A stretch of DNA of 64,000 nt from IMG/VR virus record IMGVR_UViG_3300036715_002842, positions 41,576-105,575 of that record, one strand, 5' to 3'. The position numbers and the translations under genes were made by a program. Shown in pieces: positions 7,195 to 60,923 of the stretch. Every line of letters starts with the position of its first letter. Position 1 is the stretch's first letter. A model generated the notes under the pieces. That model saw only the letters and a program-made list of their open reading frames with translations. It searched no databases and had not been told where the DNA came from. This DNA comes from a virus.

Positions 7195-7251
7195 AGTTAC
7201 TCGAAGGAGCGCTCTACCCCGTTAATCTCGGCAGCAATCACCGTTTGGCCT

Positions 7252-7530
7252 CTAACTAGCGAGCGGCAGCTTTTCAATTTCTGCCATGAATGAAGGTGGG
7301 GTTGTGAAAGCTGCCGCTCGAGGTATCTTAAAGTACGGATCGGTAAATCCGATGGCACCTTCAGAGATGGCATCCTTAATAAGGAACCGTGGAGTGTCCA
7401 GGATGACCAGAGTTTCGTTCTTCCACTCTTCCGGATACTCTAGAACGAACTGAGCAATAGCGTGCCCAGCTTGAGACATCTTTTGTCCGAAAGAAAGTTT
7501 TTCGTCGATCAGAATGTAGAGCTTAGTCAT
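7252..7530 (-). CDS. Pth2-like peptidyl-tRNA hydrolase
   Basis: MTKLYILIDEKLSFGQKMSQAGHA...W...TLVIL matches the Pth2-family N-terminal pattern (G.K..Q..HA); start at 7530. Confidence 0.7.
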   Translation of the reverse strand: MTKLYILIDEKLSFGQKMSQAGHAIAQFVLEYPEEWKNETLVILDTPRFLIKDAISEGAIGFTDPYFKIPRAAAFTTPPSFMAEIEKLPLAS

Positions 7531-7834
7531 CGCTTTCCTCGTCTTCATCGTTCTTCTTGATGAGATAGGGTTTGAGAGGGTCCATATAAATGACCCCATC
7601 CTTCTTGAACGCTTCCTCGATTGCAGACATGGGAAACTTGAAAGTGTAATAGTTGTCGTTACAACTGTAAGAACAACGGCAAGGATTCACTTCCCGAATA
7701 TTCGCGATAAGATGGTCACCCTCCATTCGAAATCCCTGCAACCTAAAGTTGCTGAAGAGCTTGGAGTGATAGAAGGCGTCCTTGAGCTTCTGTTCAAACT
7801 TCTTCGTGGCTTGAAGGGTTTCGGTGTAAGACAT
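7523..7834 (-). CDS. Hypothetical protein (CxCxxxC motif)
   Basis: MSYTETLQATKK..., SD GGAG, overlaps the start of the Pth2-like gene. Confidence 0.65.
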   Translation of the reverse strand: MSYTETLQATKKFEQKLKDAFYHSKLFSNFRLQGFRMEGDHLIANIREVNPCRCSYSCNDNYYTFKFPMSAIEEAFKKDGVIYMDPLKPYLIKKNDEDEESDD

Positions 7835-7924
7835 TGGAATTCTCCACAAGTTGTAAAAGTTGATTGACAAACCGGATATGCAGCTCCGTTAACATCCTCT
7901 TCAAAGGCTTGCTGTCTAACCTCT

Positions 7925-8098
7925 TCAGATTGTGGGATGGTAATCCTTTCCAGCAATCTTTACCCAGTTTGACATTCCAATCAAGAGGTGACCGTGCTGA
8001 GAAGGGGAGAAGGGGACTAGCCCCTTCCCATCACAGTGCAGACTTGGCTTAGACGATTCGAAGACCGTCCGGCAACCAAGACAGATCCACTCTTTCAT
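7925..8098 (-). CDS. Small 57-aa protein with CxxC (MKEWICLGCRTVFES...)
   Basis: Translated by hand; ATG overlaps the TGA of the upstream gene (TGATG); below the ORF-track size cut-off. Confidence 0.55.
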   Translation of the reverse strand: MKEWICLGCRTVFESSKPSLHCDGKGLVPFSPSQHGHLLIGMSNWVKIAGKDYHPTI

Positions 8099-8544
8099 CA
8101 CTTCCCCTCTTGCATGTCGAGGAGGATCTGCGTACTCAGACCCTGCTGGAAGTCCAGAGTCTCCTTACGGAAACGCTTCTTCTCTTCCCAAGCGGCGATG
8201 TCCTCAGCAATCATTTCCTTCCATTCCGCGAGCTGGCGCTGAGAATAGTGGTCGGCTTGCTTGTGGAAGTAAGAACGGCTGGGATTCCGGTTGGGCTCGA
8301 TCTGCTCGAGGGTACGTCCACGGAGAAGGCAGTAAGCGATGTGCTTCGCTCTCCAATTCTGATCGTCGCAGCTGTAGAAGTTCTCGGGCTTGATTGCCAG
8401 GAGCTTGGCGCGAAGTTCTTCCTGTTGCTCCCCGGGAATGGAAGGCTTGAAGGTGGCATCGTAACGCCGTTCCCAATGCCTGCAAGCCACTTCGTGCTTG
8501 AGCTCTGCCTTGATGGTTGCGATCAGTTCTTTGTAAGTGGTCAT
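8098..8544 (-). CDS. Hypothetical protein (RAKHIAYCLLRGRTLEQIE motif); first gene of the amber-gated operon
   Basis: 148-aa ORF; its SD GGAGA lies inside a hairpin. Confidence 0.75.
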   Translation of the reverse strand: MTTYKELIATIKAELKHEVACRHWERRYDATFKPSIPGEQQEELRAKLLAIKPENFYSCDDQNWRAKHIAYCLLRGRTLEQIEPNRNPSRSYFHKQADHYSQRQLAEWKEMIAEDIAAWEEKKRFRKETLDFQQGLSTQILLDMQEGK

Positions 8545-8546
8545 TA

Positions 8547-8598
8547 GATTCTCCGAAATTTGAAAAGTTTGAGAAAAGGTTTTCGAATTTGGAGAATC
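8547..8598 (-). promoter_or_regulatory. RBS-sequestering hairpin for the gene at 8544
   Basis: GATTCTCCAAATTCGAAAA pairs with TTTTCAAATTTCGGAGAATC (one bulge, one mismatch); the right arm contains SD GGAGA 5 nt before the ATG. Confidence 0.75.
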
Positions 8599-8623
8599 AC
8601 TAAGGTGGGCGGTTCTACGTCAT
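8597..8623 (-). promoter_or_regulatory. Minigene 2: ATG ACG TAG AAC CGC CCA CCT TAG TGA (M-T-amber-N-R-P-P-stop)
   Basis: Strong SD AAGGAG 6 nt upstream; the read-through extension ends at the base of the RBS hairpin. Confidence 0.7.
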
Positions 8624-8634
8624 CGTAGGCTCCT

Positions 8635-8754
8635 TTACGAACAGAAAAAACCCAACAGAGGCTGCTGGGCAGCTGATCCGTTGGGGAGGAAGTGTTCTTG
8701 CGAACACAGATTTTTGTGGTGTGGCAAAACTTTGGAGCCGCGAATCTACTTCAT
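8635..8754 (-). promoter_or_regulatory. Minigene 1: ATG AAG TAG, with a 39-codon read-through frame spanning a terminator
   Basis: SD GAGGG upstream; after the TAG the frame stays open to TAA at 8635-8637, which overlaps the SD of minigene 2. Confidence 0.65.
8645..8685 (-). terminator. Intrinsic terminator (attenuator) in the leader
   Basis: CCCAACGGA-TCA-GCTGC-CCA-GCAGC-C-TCTGTTGGG followed by TTTTTT. Confidence 0.8.
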
Positions 8755-8767
8755 GGTCTTGTCCCTC

Positions 8768-8805
8768 AAATGGTTGGTACTACCCAAAATGGTTGGTACT
8801 ACCCA
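8768..8805. repeat. Perfect 19-bp tandem duplication (AAATGGTTGGTACTACCCA x2) at the predicted transcription start
   Basis: Copies at 8768-8786 and 8787-8805. Confidence 0.9.
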
Positions 8806-8812
8806 AAGACTA

Positions 8813-8841
8813 ATTATAACCCCGGATCTTTCGTTTGCCAA
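8813..8841 (-). promoter_or_regulatory. Sigma70-type promoter TTGGCA-N17-TATAAT
   Basis: -35 at 8836-8841 and -10 at 8813-8818 on the minus strand. Confidence 0.75.
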
Positions 8842-8905
8842 GGTTTGACGGAAAAATTATTTTACCCTTGGCTTCATGGTTACATATCAGTGACGATCTT
8901 GATGG

Positions 8906-9943
8906 TCATGGCTGACTCCCAGAAGTAAGGACGTTTCGTTCCATGGGCTGACCGTGCATCCAGTGTTTCACGGTCTGGACATGGGAGGCCCGGACGAACT
9001 TCCCAACCTTGACCCGAAACTCAGAGAAGGGGAATGCCTCGGCCACCCGGACCACATAGCCCTCCTGGCGATCCCATTTGCGCTTGTCCCACAAGGCGCG
9101 GATGGCCTTTTCGTCATAGATTCCGTCGTAGAGTACGGGAACAGGAGTAATCCCCAACAGGGCAAACCATTCCAGCGTCTCGTCCCAGGGGAGGCAGATG
9201 TTCCGGTCATCCCAGATGGAGAACCCAAGCAGGTAGCTGGGAAGGCCGTCGTAGCCGATGGAATGCTTGGCGTAGAGGTTTTCGCCGCACACTCGCCATC
9301 CTTCCGGGATGTCCATACGGATCTGGGACCAGAATTGCTTGACCCAGTTCCGGCTGGGGTGACTGCGCCCATCCAGGCTCCGAGCGTGGATGTGATCCTG
9401 GTAGAGGGACGTGTTTTCTCCGTCCATTTTCTCGGTAACGATCACCCGCTTCCCTGCGAGGGCTGCGGTGGAATCCATCATTCGGTCGTCGTCGTTCATT
9501 CCCTCCGACCATGGCAGATGGTGGGTCCTGGGATACTTGACCCAGTGGGTGAATAGGCTAAGAACGCCGCCAATGGCGAGCACCTTCTGAACGCTCTCGT
9601 CATGGAACAACTCCCCCTTGAGGCGCTGGCCATTGGGGAGGATGGGATTCCCCCACTTGTCATAAGGCTGGTCCGCGTAGAGATGTGGTGGGAGCAAAGA
9701 TTTGGTGATCCCGCAGGCGTTACGAACATCCTCGGTGGAGATCTCTGTGGTTTCGCACCGCATGTGGTGATCGCCACAAACGGAAGCGCCGTTGTCGAGG
9801 TAGTAGCCTCCGTCCGGCCACAGTCTGCGTTCCAGGATGTGGTGGGCGTCCGCAGCAGGTTCCCCGCAGAAGACACAGCGGCCCTTGGCGCGAGCAAACA
9901 CGGCCTCGCGGAAAGCGTCTCTGGTTAGCAGCAGGGCGTTCAT
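8906..9943 (-). CDS. HNH-domain / Rnl2-type RNA ligase fusion protein
   Basis: N-terminal CxxC...AHHI...NG..VC..HH (HNH); C-terminal YPRTHHLPWS, TEKMDGEN (motif I), GENLY, EGYVVR, KFVR; visibly higher GC than its flanks. Confidence 0.85.
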   Translation of the reverse strand: MNALLLTRDAFREAVFARAKGRCVFCGEPAADAHHILERRLWPDGGYYLDNGASVCGDHHMRCETTEISTEDVRNACGITKSLLPPHLYADQPYDKWGNPILPNGQRLKGELFHDESVQKVLAIGGVLSLFTHWVKYPRTHHLPWSEGMNDDDRMMDSTAALAGKRVIVTEKMDGENTSLYQDHIHARSLDGRSHPSRNWVKQFWSQIRMDIPEGWRVCGENLYAKHSIGYDGLPSYLLGFSIWDDRNICLPWDETLEWFALLGITPVPVLYDGIYDEKAIRALWDKRKWDRQEGYVVRVAEAFPFSEFRVKVGKFVRASHVQTVKHWMHGQPMERNVLTSGSQP

Positions 9944-10064
9944 TGGGTGGTTCCTTTCGAGTTGGATTCATTACATTTCAGACGCTACCGTATGGCGTAC
10001 CTGTGGGTGTATCCCCTTGAATTCTGGCTCGTAGTGTTTCAAAGCGGTTTCACTCTTAAAAAAG

Positions 10065-10136
10065 TCCCCACGGTGGTAGTCGAAACCACGACACAGTGTT
10101 TTAGAAGCACCTGCTCTACCGTTGAGCTACGTGGGG
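10065..10136 (-). tRNA. tRNA with CUA anticodon (amber suppressor); CCA end not encoded
   Basis: CCCCACG-TA-GCTC-AACGGTA-GAGC-A-GGTGC-TT[CTA]AA-ACACT-GTGTC-GTGGT-TTCGACT-ACCAC-CGTGGGG-A folds as a cloverleaf; has a C31:A39 mismatch and T53-A61. Confidence 0.8.
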
Positions 10137-10155
10137 AAAGATCTGCTACCTAGAA

Positions 10156-10183
10156 AGAATAACCTTGAATTTTGAATTGTCAA
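10156..10183 (-). promoter_or_regulatory. Promoter for the tRNA: TTGACA-N16-TATTCT
   Basis: Perfect -35; the -10 lies about 20 nt upstream of the tRNA 5' end. Confidence 0.6.
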
Positions 10184-10250: not shown

Positions 10251-11240
10251 CTATTCATCTGAGTGCGCCAGGGCAGCGAACAGGCACCCCTTCGCGATAG
10301 CCTTCAGAGGATCCTCAGCACGAACTACCTTGCCAATCTTGATGGGGAGGTTCTGCGCCTTGAGAGCCTCTTCGAACAGTTCGATGAACCCGCCGGGAAG
10401 AGAGGTTCCACCTGCGACTGCGATCTTGGGCGGCTTCTGGAAGTCTGGTAGCTTCGCCATGCCAAGGAGTTTGTCCTTGATTTGCTTGGCTACGTACTCC
10501 AACATCGCCTTGTAGTAGTACGAAATGGCTTCCTCGGTCTGATCCTTGGGCTTGCGGAGATCAATGATCCCCTCCTTTGCGAGCATAGCCTTGACCGTGG
10601 AGATACCCAGAGAGGTGGAAACGTTCTTGTCAATGTAGTCACCGGAACGGGCTACGGAGAAGTTGAAGGCTTCCACACTCAATTGTGCGCAGCAGACATT
10701 GCACATGCCAGCGCCCCACGAAACACCAAAGCCAGAAAGATTGTCCTCGAGGAGTTCACTGTAAATGACCGACAGACCTTCATTGAGTGGTACTGGAGTG
10801 TAACCCATGTCGGTTAGGATCTTGTTGAACACATTCGAGTGGTAAACTGCATTGAACTCCTGATCGACTGGATCCCCTGGGACGGAGTAGACCACCTTTT
10901 CTTTCTTGGTGGCAGGAGCCCCAAGGGACTCTTTGATGATCGCCTGGATGATTGGCAGCGCCTTAATCTCATGGGGATTGAGAACACCTTGCGACATAGG
11001 TCGCTTGGGCTCACTGTTGAAAGCGCTAGCGAGCTCCAGTGCCTGCTGACCTAAAGCAGAAATTTCCCCCTCAAGTTCCACGTAAGGTGCACCCACCTTC
11101 TTGAGCATCGATTTTACGAAGGGGGATTTCTCTACTGGTACGAAGATATTGCGGAAAGCTTTGTACTCGAAGCTCTCCCCATCTGCACCAACCCTCGCAG
11201 CTACGATATTTCCAGTTCCCAAATCTAGTCCACAGGGCAT
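10251..11240 (-). CDS. Actin-fold ATPase, volactin-like
   Basis: GLDLGTGNIV (phosphate 1), RPMSQG, P.DPVD, PLNEGLSVIYSEL, SWGAGMCNV (phosphate 2), SVARSGDYID, AGGTS (adenosine). Confidence 0.8.
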   Translation of the reverse strand: MPCGLDLGTGNIVAARVGADGESFEYKAFRNIFVPVEKSPFVKSMLKKVGAPYVELEGEISALGQQALELASAFNSEPKRPMSQGVLNPHEIKALPIIQAIIKESLGAPATKKEKVVYSVPGDPVDQEFNAVYHSNVFNKILTDMGYTPVPLNEGLSVIYSELLEDNLSGFGVSWGAGMCNVCCAQLSVEAFNFSVARSGDYIDKNVSTSLGISTVKAMLAKEGIIDLRKPKDQTEEAISYYYKAMLEYVAKQIKDKLLGMAKLPDFQKPPKIAVAGGTSLPGGFIELFEEALKAQNLPIKIGKVVRAEDPLKAIAKGCLFAALAHSDE

Positions 11241-11833: not shown

Positions 11834-12123
11834 TTTTCAAAGATTCGAAGGTCGCCCAGATCGAACGAGACCTGTATTCCGAACGAGTCCTTCGCAGCTT
11901 TTTCTAACTTTGCAACCAGAACGTGAACTGGAGGATCTACGGAGTTGTCACACTCACCCCGCTTTATTTCCAGGATTCTTGAGGACTTGAAGCAAAGATA
12001 GAAGGATTCTTCATCAAATTCCATATAAAACGGGGAAGTAGCCATTCCCACCCGGTAATTGATATCCGGGGACCATTTGAAATATCTTTGTGAAACGGTT
12101 TTCATAAGTTCACGAATTTTCAT
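11824..12123 (-). CDS. Hypothetical protein
   Basis: 99-aa ORF overlapping both neighbours. Confidence 0.6.
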   Translation of the reverse strand: MKIRELMKTVSQRYFKWSPDINYRVGMATSPFYMEFDEESFYLCFKSSRILEIKRGECDNSVDPPVHVLVAKLEKAAKDSFGIQVSFDLGDLRIFEKCH

Positions 12124-13805
12124 ATTTTCACCAATTCAAATTTTAATTGTCCGCAATCCCAGATTCGAAGGATTCCCGCTTGATCCATAATTTCTTTCTG
12201 CGTTCCAGAAAGGTGTGGAAATCTCTTTGATAACTTATCGTGTGTGTAGTTCAAACGGTTGATTCTGAAGTCTCTGAAATTTTCAAAACCATGAAAACTG
12301 GGCGGAATTTCACCCACAAGACTGAAACCAGTTTTTAGATACAATTCCCCACGACTCCAACATCCATCAGCAAAGGTGTAAATTCTTTTCCAATTTACCT
12401 TTCTTTTGAAGTGTTCGAGAAGTTTAGAAAATCCACCTACAACACTGCAAGAGGTTGCGTAACGATTGAGATCGTAGGACCCATTTCCCATGGATTTGAG
12501 GGTTAACATCGCAACGAGAGCACCCCCATTCTGAAGCGCGTAGGTTATCGAACCAGCGCCATCCCCTTTGATATGATTTGTCTCATAGAAACTCTTCTTT
12601 TGCTGTGAAGTTGGAATTAAGATTGAACATTTTCTAGCAAAAACTCTTTCTTTTTCTAATCCAACGAAAGCTCGAATTTTCTTTTCAAGTAGGGTTCTCT
12701 TAAGTAACCAATCATCCGACCAGATATGAATCAACCTAATTCCCAACCGTTCACATTCGAGGGTCTTTTCGTGGTGGTACTCTGGTTTTTGATGGAGTTC
12801 TGAATGCCAGTAAAGACCGTTGTATTCAAAAGCTAGTTTGAAATCTGGTAGATAAACATCTATTTCTTTTCTAGATTCAGAAATCTTACCCACCATTTTC
12901 GCTAGTTTCTGAAAAGATAACCTTGCTATCGTTTTCAATTCTAGAGAATCTATGAAGTCAATGAAAGATCTTTCTTCCGCACTACTTCCCTGGTTAGCAA
13001 AACCTCTTAACTCCAAATTGGAGTATTTCCAGAAGTAATTCGAAGCACCTGCCGCGTTGATTCCAAGTTCAGCTGCAATCTGATCAATACTTCTTTGTTT
13101 GTTGCAATACTCTTCTTTCCAGAATTCTTCTGAAGTAATTTTTTCGATGATTGCTTGAGGAAGCTTAGGTCTTTGAACAATTCTGCGTCCCCTCGAACTC
13201 TGGATAAAATGGGCCACACCATACTTTCTTAGACTAGTCTCCCTACTTTTCAACTTTATTGATTCAAGTACCGCTGGATTTTCTACCCCATATTTCTGTA
13301 AACAGGTGGCTTTCATCTTTAATCTTATTGATTTTTGTAAGTCAACATTTTTCAATTTCTCCGATATTTTTTCTTTGACTTCCACCGCCTGACTAGCGTT
13401 TTCAACTCCAAACCTTTCCAAGTTAGTTTCTTTCATTCGTTGCTTAACTATATCGGATTGAGCTGGGTGATGAGTTCCATAGTGATTTTGAGAAGTTTCG
13501 GCTTTCTTCTTCTTAACTATATCAGATTGACTAGCATTTTCAACTCCGAACCGTTCCAAGTTCGTTTCTTTCATTCGTTGCTTAACTATATCAGATTGAC
13601 TAGCATTTTCAACTCCGAACCGTTCTAAGTTCGTTTTTCTACACTTGTCAAGAATTTCTTCTTTAGAGGTCTCTAAAATTCGAAGTCTACTTTCACTTTT
13701 TCTTTTTCTTGTTGCTGGACAAGAGTTTGCGGATTTTCCACATCGAGAAGGTTTTTCCGGTGGAAACACCGCAATTAAACCACACCCATACTTACACAAC
13801 TTCAT
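12120..13805 (-). CDS. Free-standing homing-type endonuclease (Cys-rich N-term, KxTNLERFGVEN repeats, PD-(D/E)xK domain, conserved C-terminal domain); paralog 1
   Basis: EIDVYLPDFKLAFEYNGLYWHS, GIRLIHIWSDDW, YDLNRYA, RIWDCGQ; AT-rich relative to its neighbours. Confidence 0.75.
   Translation of the reverse strand: MKLCKYGCGLIAVFPPEKPSRCGKSANSCPATRKRKSESRLRILETSKEEILDKCRKTNLERFGVENASQSDIVKQRMKETNLERFGVENASQSDIVKKKKAETSQNHYGTHHPAQSDIVKQRMKETNLERFGVENASQAVEVKEKISEKLKNVDLQKSIRLKMKATCLQKYGVENPAVLESIKLKSRETSLRKYGVAHFIQSSRGRRIVQRPKLPQAIIEKITSEEFWKEEYCNKQRSIDQIAAELGINAAGASNYFWKYSNLELRGFANQGSSAEERSFIDFIDSLELKTIARLSFQKLAKMVGKISESRKEIDVYLPDFKLAFEYNGLYWHSELHQKPEYHHEKTLECERLGIRLIHIWSDDWLLKRTLLEKKIRAFVGLEKERVFARKCSILIPTSQQKKSFYETNHIKGDGAGSITYALQNGGALVAMLTLKSMGNGSYDLNRYATSCSVVGGFSKLLEHFKRKVNWKRIYTFADGCWSRGELYLKTGFSLVGEIPPSFHGFENFRDFRINRLNYTHDKLSKRFPHLSGTQKEIMDQAGILRIWDCGQLKFELVKI
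13395..13640. repeat. Coding tandem repeats with about 69-nt period (KETNLERFGVENASQSDIVK)
   Basis: Near-identical DNA blocks, e.g. CTTAACTATATCAGATTGACTAGCATTTTCAACTCCGAACCGTTC twice. Confidence 0.8.
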
Positions 13806-21585: not shown

Positions 21586-21903
21586 GTGAGTAAGGTACGA
21601 CACGTCTACGGCACCTCAGTTGATGACCGTAAAAGGGCAATCGCTAACCTTCAGTTTGCCCTGGAGGATAAGGCTCTCTGGTACATGAATTGTAAGTATC
21701 GTCCAAACAAAACCGCGATTGCAAAGGGAAAATTTTGTAATTGGATCACAAAGGACACCTTTGATCTAGCTTGTAAAGCGATTATCAATGCAACGGACCC
21801 CATCTATTTCTACACGTTCGGAGACATGGTAGAGTTGGATGGGCAGAAGATCACTGAGTTCGCAAACTGGGACTCAATGGACCTTCGTAAGATATCTGGT
21901 TAG
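21586..21903 (+). CDS. Hypothetical protein
   Basis: GTG start after SD GAGG. Confidence 0.55.
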   Translation: MSKVRHVYGTSVDDRKRAIANLQFALEDKALWYMNCKYRPNKTAIAKGKFCNWITKDTFDLACKAIINATDPIYFYTFGDMVELDGQKITEFANWDSMDLRKISG

Positions 21904-21910
21904 ATTGATC

Positions 21911-23728
21911 ATGAATACCTGGTACAAGAGATATCTTGACTTAATTGGATTGAAGTATCCGGGTGACAGTATTTTTATCAAGAAGAACCCAGAGTTCTGT
22001 TCAAGTGTTCTCAATGCAACTTCTAAATGTTCTTCAAACCTCCCCATCCTTTCAAGGGTTCTTCTTCTAGATATGGGTTTGGAGATTGAACCTCCATGTA
22101 TAATTTGTGGTAATAAATCTATTTGGTGGAAGGATCCACACAATCCTTCCAGCGGTTGGAAGGATCACACCTGTTCTGCCTCTTGTAGTCGAAGGGCCGT
22201 AAGAGTTCTTCGTGGTGAGACTCTTATAGAAAAGCAGAAACAAACGGTTAGGAATCGTTATGGTGTTGAGAATGTTGCGACGCTGAAAGAAGTTCAAGAG
22301 ACTATTAAGAAAACCAACTTGGAGAGGTTTGGAACCGAAGCCTCTTCGAGGTCCTTGGTTGTACAAGAAAAGAAACTTAGAACTATTCGAGAACGTTATG
22401 GTGTTGATAACGTTATGCAGGTAGATAATATTAGAGAGAAAGTAGAGAAGACTTGCCTTGAGAAATTTGGTTTCAAGCATGCTGCTAGTTCTGAAACCGT
22501 GAAAGATGCAACAAAGAAGACTAACTTGGATCTGTATGGTTGCCCTTACCCAATGCAGAATATAGATGTTAAAAGGAAGAGACTCGAAACTTTTCGAGAG
22601 AGATTCAGTGTAGATCATCCAATGCAGACTGAAGAATATAAGGTCAAGCTCAAATCAACTTTGAAGGTATTATATGGAACCAGAAAAATCGGTTGGCGCT
22701 ATAAATGCCCAACCGATGTGGCAATAGAAAAGTTGAAATCCCGTGAATTTTGGAATTCTGAACATGTTCAGAATAAGAAGAGTCTTCATCAAATAGCGAG
22801 AGAACTTAACACTACCAGTTCGACCGTAGCAATTTATTTCTTCAAATACAGCGGTTTACCCAAAATTCTAATTCGATCTGGCGTTTCTTCCGAGGAACAG
22901 AACTTCTTTTCCTTCTTGGAATCAAAAATAAGTGGGATTCTTCAATCTATTCCTTTAAGTTCCCTCGGTGGGAAGAGTAAAAGATCCTTGGATGCCTACA
23001 TTCCACAGCTAAATTTAGCATTTGAATACAATGGGGTATATTGGCATTCAGAAAAATTTCGTTCTTCTAGGGAGCACTTAGAGAAGACCTTAGAGTGTGA
23101 AAAACTTGGCATACGGCTTATCCACGTGTGGTCGGACGATTGGATATTCAAACAAGAACTCGTGAAGAAAAAGATTTGTTCGTTACTGGGTTTAGAATTC
23201 CAAAAGGTATATGCGAGGAAGTGTGCCATCGTTTCTGTAGATAGTAAGAAGAAGAAGAATTTTTACAGCACGAACCATATCAAGGGAGATGGTGTTGGCT
23301 CAATAAGTTATGGTCTCCAATACGGTGGGCAACTTGTAGCACTTATCACTTTCAAAAATATTGGGAAGGGAATTTACGATCTCAATCGTTACGCAACCTC
23401 TTGCAGTGTTGTAGGTGGATTCAGCAAATTACTCAGTCATTTCAAGAAAAATACTAATTGGTCAAAAATCTATACCTACGCAGATCGAAGTTGGAGTCGT
23501 GGGGATGTGTATCTTAAAACTGGATTTACCTTCCTGTCGGAAATTCCACCCTCTTTTCATGGTCTAGAAAAAGACCGAAGAGTTAACCGCTTGAATTATA
23601 CCCACAAAAAACTATCCCGTAGGTTCCCAACTGCGGTTGGAACCCAGGATCAGATCATGAGTAGTGCCGGTATACTTAGAATCTGGGATTGTGGGCAGTT
23701 GAAGTTCGGAGTGACTAACCATGGCTGA
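21911..23728 (+). CDS. Free-standing homing-type endonuclease, paralog 2
   Basis: CIIC..CSASC, KTNLERFG repeats, LDAYIPQLNLAFEYNGVYWHS, IHVWSDDW, RIWDCGQ. Confidence 0.75.
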   Translation: MNTWYKRYLDLIGLKYPGDSIFIKKNPEFCSSVLNATSKCSSNLPILSRVLLLDMGLEIEPPCIICGNKSIWWKDPHNPSSGWKDHTCSASCSRRAVRVLRGETLIEKQKQTVRNRYGVENVATLKEVQETIKKTNLERFGTEASSRSLVVQEKKLRTIRERYGVDNVMQVDNIREKVEKTCLEKFGFKHAASSETVKDATKKTNLDLYGCPYPMQNIDVKRKRLETFRERFSVDHPMQTEEYKVKLKSTLKVLYGTRKIGWRYKCPTDVAIEKLKSREFWNSEHVQNKKSLHQIARELNTTSSTVAIYFFKYSGLPKILIRSGVSSEEQNFFSFLESKISGILQSIPLSSLGGKSKRSLDAYIPQLNLAFEYNGVYWHSEKFRSSREHLEKTLECEKLGIRLIHVWSDDWIFKQELVKKKICSLLGLEFQKVYARKCAIVSVDSKKKKNFYSTNHIKGDGVGSISYGLQYGGQLVALITFKNIGKGIYDLNRYATSCSVVGGFSKLLSHFKKNTNWSKIYTYADRSWSRGDVYLKTGFTFLSEIPPSFHGLEKDRRVNRLNYTHKKLSRRFPTAVGTQDQIMSSAGILRIWDCGQLKFGVTNHG

Positions 23729-60642: not shown

Positions 60643-60923
60643 TCTCAATCGAACGACTCTACAACTGTATTAGTTGGCTCGAAGGGAAAGGGGCAACTTC
60701 CTTTTCTGTCTGCATTTCGGAACAGATGCTTCGGTTCTGGTGTCACGAAGATCCGAAGAATGTTGAAGTGAATCCTAAGGGGGATCACCTGGGGTTCATC
60801 AAGAACTATCCGGTCATTCGAACCGACAGTAAGGTGGGTTTGATCAAGTGCATCATGGGTGGTGGGATCCACTACGAGCATATCCACGAAGAACACAGAG
60901 GATCCAACAAAACAATGCGTTAG
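60639..60923 (+). CDS. Hypothetical protein
   Basis: ATGA coupling. Confidence 0.55.
   Translation: MISIERLYNCISWLEGKGATSFSVCISEQMLRFWCHEDPKNVEVNPKGDHLGFIKNYPVIRTDSKVGLIKCIMGGGIHYEHIHEEHRGSNKTMR

What the first reader, a model, noticed from the sequence alone, without database searches (positions are those of the whole stretch)
7252..10183. Candidate undescribed system: operon gated twice by amber (UAG) read-through, next to a CUA suppressor tRNA, an RNA ligase and a peptidyl-tRNA hydrolase
Seen on the minus strand, in order: promoter, tRNA(CUA), HNH-RNA ligase, sigma70 promoter (8841-8813), minigene 1 ATG-AAG-TAG (8754), intrinsic terminator (8685-8645), minigene 2 ATG-ACG-TAG (8623), RBS-hiding hairpin (8598-8547), then genes for a 148-aa unknown, a 57-aa CxxC protein, a 103-aa unknown and a Pth2-like hydrolase. 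Both minigenes have SD sequences and UAG at codon 3. Each has a read-through frame positioned to disable the next block. Established: translation-coupled attenuation, slow termination at Pro-stop, and two-codon minigenes (lambda bar) causing peptidyl-tRNA drop-off that Pth clears. Inference: an AND gate expresses a translation-rescue operon only when UAG termination fails, either through the phage's own suppressor tRNA or through loss of RF1. The ligase may repair tRNA.
Basis: partly seen in the sequence, partly recalled or inferred. Interest (0 to 1): 0.95.

Follow-up and report, generated by a model that had tools for sequence, protein, structure and literature searches.

The report
Stop-readthrough sensor gating a phage operon
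A large phage that uses the normal genetic code carries a tRNA that reads the UAG stop codon, and beside it an operon whose tiny leader genes contain UAG stops that probably must be read through before the operon is switched on; the main lock recurs in about a hundred other phage loci, and I found no published description of it.

Summary
The second "minigene" is one instance of a conserved leader. It consists of an SD, ATG, 0-12 codons, UAG, a few more codons ending (K/R)-Pro-Pro-stop, then a hairpin pairing the SD of a small helical protein (family A). A miniature Pth2-fold protein follows, and a tRNA(CUA) lies nearby. I found this in 60 of 68 loci. The internal stop was always UAG, never UGA or UAA, and 65 of 72 loci had a tRNA(CUA). 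The geometry means only a ribosome that has read through UAG reaches the anti-SD. These phages use the standard code, so the leader is a conserved target for an otherwise "orphan" suppressor tRNA.

Specific to this window are a first UAG leader ahead of an intrinsic terminator (weakly supported) and a tRNA placed upstream. The HNH-RNA ligase and the 103-aa gene are absent from a co-occurring natural strain variant. The 57-aa gene is cut to about 31 codons there. These genes are not part of the device.

The bar-minigene idea is not supported. What the two output proteins do is unknown. This scan noted the same design earlier on other DNA. I tested it independently here.

The parts
10156..10183 (-). 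promoter-like site in front of the suppressor tRNA
   Evidence: TTGACA, 16 nt, TATTCT; 10 of 12
10064..10136 (-). tRNA with anticodon CUA (amber suppressor). No CCA is encoded, it has C1-G72 and A73, and a U-run follows it.
   Evidence: ARAGORN. Rfam RF00005, 57.7 bits, E 4e-11. Its nearest relatives are the CUA tRNAs of other module loci.
8857..10057 (-). 1201-nt strain-variable insertion carrying the HNH + RNA ligase gene (CDS 8906-9943); not part of the conserved device
   Evidence: Pfam and PHROG hits. Contigs in three runs join 8856 to 10058. No ligase in the related loci.
8813..8841 (-). sigma70-type promoter of the leader and operon
   Evidence: TTGGCA, 17 nt, TATAAT; 11 of 12. Kept in the strain variant.
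8769..8806 (-). two tandem copies of a 19-nt repeat at the start of the transcript; single copy in the strain variant, so probably incidental
8746..8754 (-). leader 1: ATG AAG TAG with SD GAGGG (8767-8763). Its read-through frame runs on to TAA at 8637-8635.
   Evidence: Sequence. Unchanged in the strain variant, where the read-through frame stays open despite -1 and +1 indels.
8645..8685 (-). intrinsic terminator (9+5 bp hairpin, then six U) lying inside the read-through frame of leader 1
   Evidence: -20.3 kcal/mol
8597..8635 (-). leader 2: SD AAGGAG (8635-8630), then ATG ACG TAG AAC CGC CCA CCT TAG TGA (8623-8597). This reads Met-Thr-UAG-Asn-Arg-Pro-Pro-UAG-UGA.
   Evidence: Sequence. It fits the family grammar found in 60 of 68 loci. 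It is 100% identical in the strain variant.
8547..8598 (-). hairpin whose 5' arm (anti-SD) starts inside the terminal UGA of leader 2 and whose 3' arm pairs the GGAG of the 148-aa gene
   Evidence: Fold at -14.0 kcal/mol with SD pairing probability 1.0. In the variant the arms are identical and only the loop differs.
8098..8544 (-). 148-aa all-helical protein, family A (motif HIAYCLLRG..QIEP), no known function
   Evidence: Homologs. 557 clusters in an exhaustive profile search. AF2 pLDDT 92. No fold or family match.
7925..8098 (-). 57-aa CxxC ORF. Its start overlaps the stop of the 148-aa gene. It is accessory.
   Evidence: The strain variant keeps about the first 31 codons (8098 to 8005) and drops the rest.
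7523..7834 (-). 103-aa ORF of unknown function; accessory (absent from the strain variant and from related loci)
7252..7530 (-). 92-aa miniature Pth2-fold protein. It is the conserved partner of family A and ends in TAG.
   Evidence: Family profile against PDB Pth2, 3e-6 and 5e-5. 10 of 13 members hit PF01981. AF2 pLDDT 91.8. The top 12 Foldseek hits are all Pth2. A homolog sits directly behind family A in 19 loci.

Best explanation
This is a leader-peptide switch that measures whether UAG is being read through, and the phage's own tRNA(CUA) is the most likely input.

The operon mRNA starts at the promoter at 8841-8813. Leader 2 has a strong SD and normally ends at its third codon (UAG). That is 19 nt before a hairpin that pairs the SD of the 148-aa gene, which is too far for the ribosome to disturb it. 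If the suppressor tRNA decodes that UAG, the ribosome goes four codons further to Arg-Pro-Pro-stop. Peptide-bond formation and release are slow there. At that position the ribosome sits on the anti-SD arm, which begins inside the terminal stop. The SD is freed, and the 148-aa protein is translated together with the closely spaced genes behind it, including a miniature Pth2-fold protein.

In this phage a first UAG leader lies upstream of an intrinsic terminator. A ribosome that reads through it would travel across the terminator to a UAA overlapping SD2 and could stop the terminator from forming. Output would then rise roughly with the square of read-through.

Shown: the sequence elements, their conservation, the exclusive use of UAG, the linkage to tRNA(CUA), the geometry, and the standard code of these phages.

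Inferred: read-through itself, the pause, the opening of the SD, the antitermination, and what the two output proteins do.

My best guess for the output is that the proteins handle or limit by-products of suppression, namely peptidyl- or acyl-tRNA. I give that about 30%.
For: **Conserved grammar**
- The strict grammar is present at 19 of 26 family-A genes. Among about 460 other ORF starts in the same DNA there is 1 spurious hit.
- It is present in 39 of 72 loci retrieved through the Pth2-like partner.
- A relaxed grammar finds it in 60 of 68 loci. The same search finds 0 when UGA or UAA is the internal stop.

**Linkage to the tRNA**
- A tRNA(CUA) lies in 65 of 72 loci, mostly directly behind the Pth2-like gene. 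None has a UCA or UUA anticodon.

**Geometry in 46 distinct leaders**
- The last UAG lies a median 18 nt before the terminal stop.
- The anti-SD starts a median 3 nt after the terminal stop.
- The base after UAG is a purine in 44 of 46.
- The leader ends KPP or RPP in 30 of 46.

**SD hairpin**
- Median SD pairing probability is 0.995, against 0.66 for 199 control genes (p = 7e-6).
- The helix is built from 36 different arm sequences.

**Natural strain variant**
- Leader 2 and both hairpin arms are identical, and changes fall only in the loop.
- Leader 1's UAG is kept.
- The read-through frame stays open to the same UAA despite -1 and +1 indels that change the peptide.

**Standard code**
- Own contig: 92% coding, 33 of 119 genes end in TAG, and there is no excess of TAG-joined frames.
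- Complete 315-kb relative G001: 92.8% coding, no gain with TAG read as sense, and 85 of 501 genes end in TAG.
- Terminase frames are uninterrupted in four relatives.

**Other support**
- Two relatives carry an in-frame UAG inside the Pth2-like gene itself.
- Published work shows that RAPP and RGPP motifs arrest ribosomes (PMC10951233, PMC12992588) and that C-terminal poly-Pro weakens termination (PMC6412442, read).
Against: - There is no expression, ribosome or reporter data.
- Whether the tRNA is charged in the unknown host, and with which amino acid, is unknown.
- Only CUA suppressors were found, so the match of leader stop and anticodon is constant rather than covarying.
- Leader 2 ends N-R-P-P, which is not the RAPP/RGPP core shown to arrest.
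- Eight of 68 loci lack a recognisable leader.
- The first gate is seen only here. An open frame of that length follows 22% of ATG-NNN-TAG sites in the contig.
- Only 38% of this genome is in hand and it holds no recognisable capsid, portal or terminase gene. Recoded late genes elsewhere in this phage are therefore not excluded.
- In this window the tRNA has its own promoter and is not co-transcribed with the operon.
Confidence: 0.7

Rival explanations
1. The leader senses the host's release factor 1 activity or general termination efficiency rather than the phage tRNA. Read-through by near-cognate host tRNAs rises when RF1 is scarce or inhibited, and that opens the switch.
For: The switch reads the ratio of decoding to release at UAG, so a drop in RF1 would act the same way. 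The purine after UAG (44 of 46) affects both processes. In this window the tRNA is a separate transcription unit.
Against: A tRNA(CUA) is physically linked in 65 of 72 loci, usually in the same operon. Multi-UAG leaders (17 of 52) would make near-cognate read-through negligible.
Confidence: 0.1
2. The tRNA mainly serves UAG-containing late genes in the unseen part of this genome (partial recoding). The leader is then a checkpoint or timer for that code switch rather than the tRNA's main target.
For: Only 38% of the genome is present. No hallmark late genes were recognised in it. Mini-Pth2 homologs also occur in Lak megaphages, which I recall use TAG as a sense codon.
Against: A complete 315-kb relative with the module shows no gain from reading TAG as sense, and 17% of its genes end in TAG. 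Terminase genes of four relatives have no in-frame stops. The 105-kb contig shows no sign of recoding.
Confidence: 0.1
3. The two-codon minigenes act like lambda bar minigenes. They release peptidyl-tRNA (drop-off) and sequester particular tRNAs, and the Pth2-like enzyme clears the product. The sequence after the UAG is never translated.
For: Both minigenes have an SD and stop at codon 3. A Pth2-fold protein is encoded in the operon.
Against: In relatives the number of codons before UAG runs from 0 to 12. The conserved features all lie after the UAG and in frame with it: a Val or Ile codon, (K/R)-Pro-Pro, and a stop at a fixed distance from the anti-SD. The internal stop is only ever UAG.
Confidence: 0.04
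4. Chance arrangement or ordinary 5' UTR structure with no regulatory role. Alternatively, promoter plus terminator encode a small RNA of about 160 nt and the minigenes are incidental.
For: ATG-NNN-TAG is not enriched in the contig. No Rfam family matches the leader. Promoter plus terminator could delimit a short RNA.
Against: The grammar is conserved across about 100 loci of 25-95% protein identity. It is specific to this gene family and to UAG. The leader folds better than shuffles (z = -3.3).
Confidence: 0.05

Closest known systems
Leader-peptide translational attenuation of the ermC / cat type
   Same: A short leader ORF with its own SD. A ribosome held at a defined leader codon melts a hairpin that sequesters the SD of the downstream gene.
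   Different: There the ribosome is held by an antibiotic acting together with the nascent peptide. Here, reaching the holding site requires decoding a stop codon, so the signal is suppressor-tRNA activity. No drug is involved.
RAPP/RGPP-type ribosome arrest peptides (ApdA, ApdP, ApcA; SecM with RAGP); PMC7897499, PMC10951233, PMC12992588
   Same: Small upstream ORFs end in Arg-(Ala/Gly)-Pro-Pro near the C-terminus and regulate the next gene. Several relatives of this leader carry exactly RAPP or RGPP.
   Different: Those monitor protein export and contain no internal stop. This window's leader ends N-R-P-P-stop (most relatives K-P-P-stop), which is not the tested core, and it is gated by UAG.
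Transcription attenuation by a ribosome translating through the terminator (pyrBI type; my recollection, not checked here)
   Same: Leader 1's read-through frame covers the whole intrinsic terminator, so a closely following ribosome could prevent hairpin formation.
   Different: In pyrBI the coupling depends on RNA polymerase pausing at low UTP. Here it would depend on UAG read-through. It is seen only in this lineage and is weakly supported.
Synthetic UAG-in-leader switches of genetic-code expansion (reviewed in PMC6412442, sections 5.3 and 6)
   Same: A TAG placed in a leader peptide makes downstream expression depend on a suppressor tRNA. Multiplexed TAGs lower leak.
   Different: Those are engineered (tna and trp leaders, unnatural amino acids). 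This is a natural phage element with its own tRNA.
Stop-codon recoding in phages with suppressor tRNAs (bioRxiv 10.1101/2021.08.26.457843; PMC13037316)
   Same: A phage-encoded tRNA(CUA), and the idea that UAG decoding regulates phage gene expression.
   Different: Those phages carry in-frame UAG in many late genes. Here the genomes are standard-code, and the conserved UAG sits in a regulatory leader.
Pth2 (archaeal/eukaryotic peptidyl-tRNA hydrolase, PF01981)
   Same: The fold and the family-level sequence signal.
   Different: The phage protein is about 20 residues shorter. The Gly-Lys-Gly-Lys loop is shortened by two residues and mostly reads Ser-x-Gln-Gln. Activity is unknown.

Membership tests
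Pth2 peptidyl-tRNA hydrolase (PF01981) | Pth2 alpha/beta fold | tested here: met
   AF2 model pLDDT 91.8. The top 12 Foldseek PDB hits are all Pth2 or Bit1, probability 1.00, TM about 0.6.
Pth2 peptidyl-tRNA hydrolase (PF01981) | significant sequence match to the family model | tested here: inconclusive
   The window protein alone gives no Pfam hit. The family profile hits PDB Pth2 at 3e-6 and 5e-5, and 10 of 13 relatives hit PF01981, best 2.5e-6.
Pth2 peptidyl-tRNA hydrolase (PF01981) | catalytic loop (Gly-Lys-Gly-Lys) with the lysine reported as essential (my recollection of the S. solfataricus work) | tested here: not met
   HMMER aligns a two-residue deletion at this loop. The family reads Ser-x-Gln-Gln, and the window protein reads Gly-Gln-Lys.
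Pth2 peptidyl-tRNA hydrolase (PF01981) | hydrolysis of peptidyl-tRNA | not testable with these tools
   needs an enzyme assay or complementation of a pth mutant
RAPP/RGPP arrest peptides | core Arg-(Ala/Gly)-Pro-Pro at the arrest site | tested here: not met
   Leader 2 ends Asn-Arg-Pro-Pro. Leader 1 reads Ile-Arg-Gly-Ser. The core is met in some relatives: L039, L042, L048, L053, L064, L067.
RAPP/RGPP arrest peptides | demonstrated elongation arrest | not testable with these tools
   needs toeprinting or peptidyl-tRNA gels
erm/cat-type translational attenuation | leader ORF with its own SD upstream of the regulated gene | tested here: met
   AAGGAG lies 6 nt before the leader-2 ATG. An SD was required in all leaders counted.
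erm/cat-type translational attenuation | hairpin that sequesters the SD of the regulated gene, next to the stall site | tested here: met
erm/cat-type translational attenuation | stalling induced by a small-molecule ligand | tested here: not met
   There is no sign of such an input. The variable here is decoding of UAG.
Terminator attenuator overlapped by a leader ORF (pyrBI-like) | intrinsic terminator inside the translated leader frame | tested here: met
   This holds only if UAG is read through. The frame runs 8745-8635 and covers 8685-8645.
Terminator attenuator overlapped by a leader ORF (pyrBI-like) | conservation of the arrangement in relatives | tested here: inconclusive
   It is kept in one natural strain variant. 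Chance expectation is 22%.
Stop-codon-reassigned phage (code 15) | many genes with in-frame TAG, and a gain in coding density when TAG is read as sense | tested here: not met
   own contig; relatives
lambda bar-type minigene | function resides in the two-codon ORF itself | tested here: not met
   Relatives have 0 to 12 codons before UAG, and conservation lies after it.
tRNA (amber suppressor) | cloverleaf and CUA anticodon in a 7-nt loop | tested here: met
   The loop is U-U-CUA-A-A, and 53 of 72 relatives have C-U-CUA-A-A. ARAGORN's 'Pyl' label only reflects the anticodon.
tRNA (amber suppressor) | aminoacylation and suppression in the host | not testable with these tools
   The host is unknown. 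Amino-acid identity could not be inferred.

The most novel reading that the evidence does not exclude
In standard-code jumbo phages the 'orphan' tRNA(CUA) is mainly a regulatory molecule. Together with UAG-gated arrest leaders it forms a private translational control channel. The phage uses it to test that its own tRNA is matured and charged in the current host, or that host termination has been altered, before it makes family A and the mini-Pth2. In this phage the channel is used twice in series, once for transcription and once for translation, which gives a steep, low-leak response.
Probability: 0.35. Interest if true: 0.9.

Novelty: new variant of a known kind. Interest (0 to 1): 0.8.

Why it matters
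Suppressor tRNAs are often reported in phages that do not recode stop codons. Authors state that they cannot find the targets, for example for XacN1 (PMC5852040) and for Summit (PMC9022506).

A conserved UAG-gated leader next to the tRNA gives these tRNAs a concrete, testable target. It would be the first natural attenuator I know of whose input is stop-codon read-through. It parallels designs that synthetic biologists built independently.

It also points to two uncharacterised protein families as the regulated output. One is family A, with 557 clusters. The other is a miniature Pth2.

The element is short enough (about 300 nt plus a 73-nt tRNA) to test directly with reporters in laboratory strains.

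Tried and rejected
The contigs of the closest homologs (P0001-P0007, 41-95% identity) could not be read.
- **Closer relatives.** Three more scans found none: viral contigs with the single protein, viral contigs with the close-homolog alignment, and genome contigs.
- **Cultured phages (tblastn).** There was no match for family A.
- **Complex prediction** of family A with the mini-Pth2 returned no answer, score 0.00. This is not evidence either way.
- **Sequencing runs.** No RNA holder was listed, so nothing can be said about expression.
- **Family A fold and family searches** gave nothing usable:
  - Foldseek PDB: no match.
  - VIA wide: best Z 5.5 over 41 residues, within noise.
  - ESM Atlas: no usable hit.
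  - Pfam and PHROGs: nothing.
- **Hairpin alignment.** The MAFFT alignment of the hairpins (A3) was not in register. I measured pairing directly instead.
- **Swap test.** The swap test of hairpin arms is biased, because the arms were chosen from each locus's own fold. It shows only that structure is kept while sequence is free.
- **Codon-anticodon covariation** could not be tested, because every suppressor found was CUA.
- **tRNA identity.** Its amino-acid identity could not be inferred. The nearest non-suppressor is the phage's own tRNA with anticodon CAU, at a low score.
- **Site near 60915.** An SD-ATG-CGT-TAG there is only a gene junction.
- **CcrSC ligase homolog.** The neighbourhood of the ligase homolog in Caulobacter phage CcrSC shows no module.
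- **Late genes.** No capsid, portal or terminase gene was recognised in the 105-kb contig.

Full report
**What the window is.** The window is the last 64 kb of a 105.6-kb IMG/VR phage contig estimated at 38% complete, which implies a jumbo phage. It encodes rIIA, DnaB-type and other helicases and homing endonucleases. Outside the window it carries twelve tRNAs and a tmRNA. Under the standard code the contig is 92% coding. TAG ends 33 of 119 genes. Frames joined across a single TAG are no more common than across TAA or TGA, at 23, 19 and 18.

**The observation.** The features, in order:
- a promoter-like site at 10183-10156;
- a tRNA with anticodon CUA at 10136-10064;
- an HNH + RNA ligase fusion at 9943-8906;
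- an 11-of-12 sigma70 promoter at 8841-8813;
- leader 1, Met-Lys-UAG, at 8754-8746;
- an intrinsic terminator at 8685-8645, -20.3 kcal/mol followed by six U;
- leader 2, Met-Thr-UAG, at 8623-8615, behind an AAGGAG;
- a hairpin at 8598-8547 (-14.0 kcal/mol) that pairs the GGAG of the 148-aa gene;
- ORFs of 148, 57, 103 and 92 aa.

The leader as a whole folds better than shuffles, z = -3.3. ATG-NNN-TAG is not enriched in the contig. Only six copies have an SD-like motif, and two of the six lie here.

**The 92-aa protein.** It has no Pfam hit on its own. It aligns at 25-36% identity with a family of about 100-aa phage proteins. The profile of that family hits solved Pth2 structures at 3e-6 and 5e-5. 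Ten of 13 members hit PF01981. An AlphaFold model of the window protein (pLDDT 91.8) has Pth2 or Bit1 structures as its top twelve Foldseek matches. The Pth2-like call is therefore correct for the fold. The Gly-Lys-Gly-Lys loop is two residues shorter and lacks the lysine at the aligned place, so activity is open.

**The 148-aa protein.** It belongs to a family I call A. Members have an N-terminal helix and the motif HIAYCLLRG..QIEP. An exhaustive profile search finds 557 clusters, all small proteins. The model is confident and all-helical. No fold or family match was found.

**The key result.** I fetched 28 loci through family A and 72 through the Pth2-like protein. The conserved unit is leader, hairpin, family A, mini-Pth2, tRNA(CUA).
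- A Pth2-like gene sits directly behind family A in 19 loci of the first set.
- A tRNA(CUA) is present in 65 of the 72 loci of the second set, mostly just behind the Pth2-like gene. No UCA or UUA suppressor was seen. One tRNA that ARAGORN labelled Phe(aaa) has a CUA loop on inspection.
- Upstream of family A lies a short ORF with an SD, 0-12 codons, UAG, then a few codons ending (K/R)-Pro-Pro-stop.
- With a strict pattern this holds for 19 of 26 family-A genes, against one spurious hit among about 460 other ORF starts. It holds for 39 of the 72 loci.
- With a relaxed pattern that also admits RAPP- or RGPP-like ends, it holds for 60 of 68 loci. The same pattern with UGA or UAA as the internal stop finds none.
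- The window's leader 2 (Met-Thr-UAG-Asn-Arg-Pro-Pro-UAG-UGA) fits exactly.

**Geometry.** These numbers come from 46 distinct leaders.
- The last UAG lies a median 18 nt before the terminal stop.
- The anti-SD begins a median 3 nt after the terminal stop.
- The base after UAG is a purine in 44, and the next codon is Val or Ile in 41.
- The end is KPP or RPP in 30.

In the window the first UAG is 19 nt before the hairpin, and the 5' arm begins inside the terminal UGA. A ribosome released at UAG therefore cannot reach the hairpin, whereas one at the Pro-Pro-stop covers the anti-SD. SD pairing probability is far higher than for other genes of the same loci, median 0.995 against 0.66, p = 7e-6. 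The helix is made of 36 different arm sequences (a biased test, see Tried and rejected).

**A natural experiment.** Four sediment and microbial-mat metagenome runs hold this phage. Their contigs include a more abundant strain variant.
- It lacks 8857-10057, so the ligase gene is a 1201-nt insertion, and the tRNA otherwise abuts the leader's promoter.
- It lacks 7531-8004, which is the 103-aa gene and the C-terminal two thirds of the 57-aa gene.
- It has one copy of the 19-nt repeat.

Rebuilding the variant over 8481-8856 from the listed differences shows three things.
- Leader 2 is unchanged, including its Arg-Pro-Pro-UAG-UGA end.
- Both hairpin arms are unchanged, and all changes in that hairpin are in the loop.
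- Leader 1's Met-Lys-UAG is also unchanged. Its read-through frame carries a 1-nt deletion and a 1-nt insertion 61 nt apart. The peptide between them is entirely different, yet the frame stays open and ends at the same UAA that overlaps SD2.

This fits a stretch that must be translated but whose peptide does not matter. It is only suggestive. The insertion also lengthens the terminator stem, and 22% of ATG-NNN-TAG sites in the contig are followed by 36 or more open codons.

**Code usage in relatives.** Four module-bearing genomes of 248-315 kb have uninterrupted terminase frames. The complete 315-kb genome G001 is 92.8% coding under the standard code. It gains nothing if TAG is read as sense, ends 85 of 501 genes in TAG, and has one CUA tRNA among 32. 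The module is therefore not a by-product of amber recoding. For this window's own phage the unseen 62% leaves that possibility open.

**Mechanism.** The best reading is a leader-peptide attenuator whose input is decoding of UAG.
- The suppressor tRNA carries the ribosome past the UAG to a slow Pro-Pro-stop on the anti-SD.
- The SD opens, and family A and the genes behind it are made.
- In this phage a first UAG leader may also control read-through of a terminator. That would make the output depend on two read-through events.
- Seventeen of 52 related leaders achieve a similar double requirement with two UAGs in one frame. A review of synthetic switches describes multiplexed UAG as a way to cut leak (PMC6412442).
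- What the output proteins do is not known. Handling or limiting the by-products of suppression is my best guess.

**Comparison with the literature.**
- RAPP and RGPP arrest peptides are well documented (PMC7897499, PMC10951233, PMC12992588). None of them contains a gating stop codon.
- The window's leader lacks their exact core.
- Phage recoding papers link CUA tRNAs to in-frame UAGs in late genes (PMC13037316).
- Two phage genome papers state that targets of their CUA tRNAs could not be found (PMC5852040; PMC9022506).
- Six full-text searches gave no description of a natural UAG-gated leader.

**Earlier notes of this scan.** Notes on other genomes report the same design, and the same stretch was also read in other windows. 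I used them as leads for the RAPP/RGPP comparison and for in-frame UAG in Pth2-like genes. I checked each lead on loci fetched here.

**Verdict.**
The amber-read-through sensor is well supported by comparative evidence. The first gate is plausible but weak.
- The ligase, the 57-aa gene and the 103-aa gene are accessory.
- The bar-minigene idea is rejected.
- The rescue function is unproven.

Noticed in passing
window 8857-10057: The HNH + RNA ligase gene is a 1201-nt presence/absence polymorphism between co-occurring strains. It is flanked by T-runs and sits directly behind the tRNA. It looks like a mobile (homing-type) insertion. The fusion is itself a conserved phage family (phrog_24030) that is also found in Caulobacter, Ralstonia and Salicola jumbo phages.
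   Followed up: partly
window 8769-8806: Two exact tandem copies of a 19-nt unit lie right after the -10 box, each holding a short inverted repeat (GGTA n TACC). The strain variant has one copy. It could be an operator or just a duplication.
   Followed up: partly
window 8692-8707: A perfect 6-bp hairpin with a GCAA tetraloop lies inside the read-through frame of leader 1. It is unchanged in the strain variant although its flanks vary.
   Followed up: no
window 7222-7254: The mini-Pth2 gene ends in TAG. Read-through would add nine residues, including two Cys, before a TAA.
   Followed up: no
window 10251-11240: The gene next to the tRNA encodes a 329-aa actin-fold protein that matches Pfam Volactin over its full length (2e-79). 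Volactin is a family I recall being described from haloarchaea, so this is unusual in a phage.
   Followed up: no
contig G000:C1 32052-36872 (upstream of the window): A cluster of twelve tRNAs and a tmRNA (tag AENDRFLQAA). The CUA tRNA sits alone about 15 kb away.
   Followed up: no
window 12120-13805 and 21839-23728: Two paralogous large homing-endonuclease-like genes (DUF7487 plus HNH; phrog_3339) lie on opposite strands.
   Followed up: no
L106:5579-10276 (contig upstream of the window): A 1565-aa ribonucleotide reductase large subunit has an HNH endonuclease domain in its middle (residues about 573-743), as if it carries an intein or an inserted homing endonuclease.
   Followed up: no
L104:1930-2803 (Xanthomonas phage Xoo-sp13) and L105:1990-2800 (Stenotrophomonas phage RAS14): In these cultured jumbo phages the mini-Pth2 domain is the C-terminus of a protein of about 270 aa with an HD-like N-terminal part. 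The reading frame opens Met-Lys-(Lys)-UAG a few codons before the annotated start. The amber seems to be placed directly in the gene rather than in a separate leader.
   Followed up: partly
L019 and L025 (Pth2-like genes): Two relatives carry an in-frame UAG inside the Pth2-like gene at the same place (before the conserved Trp-Asn). Those genes themselves need the suppressor.
   Followed up: partly
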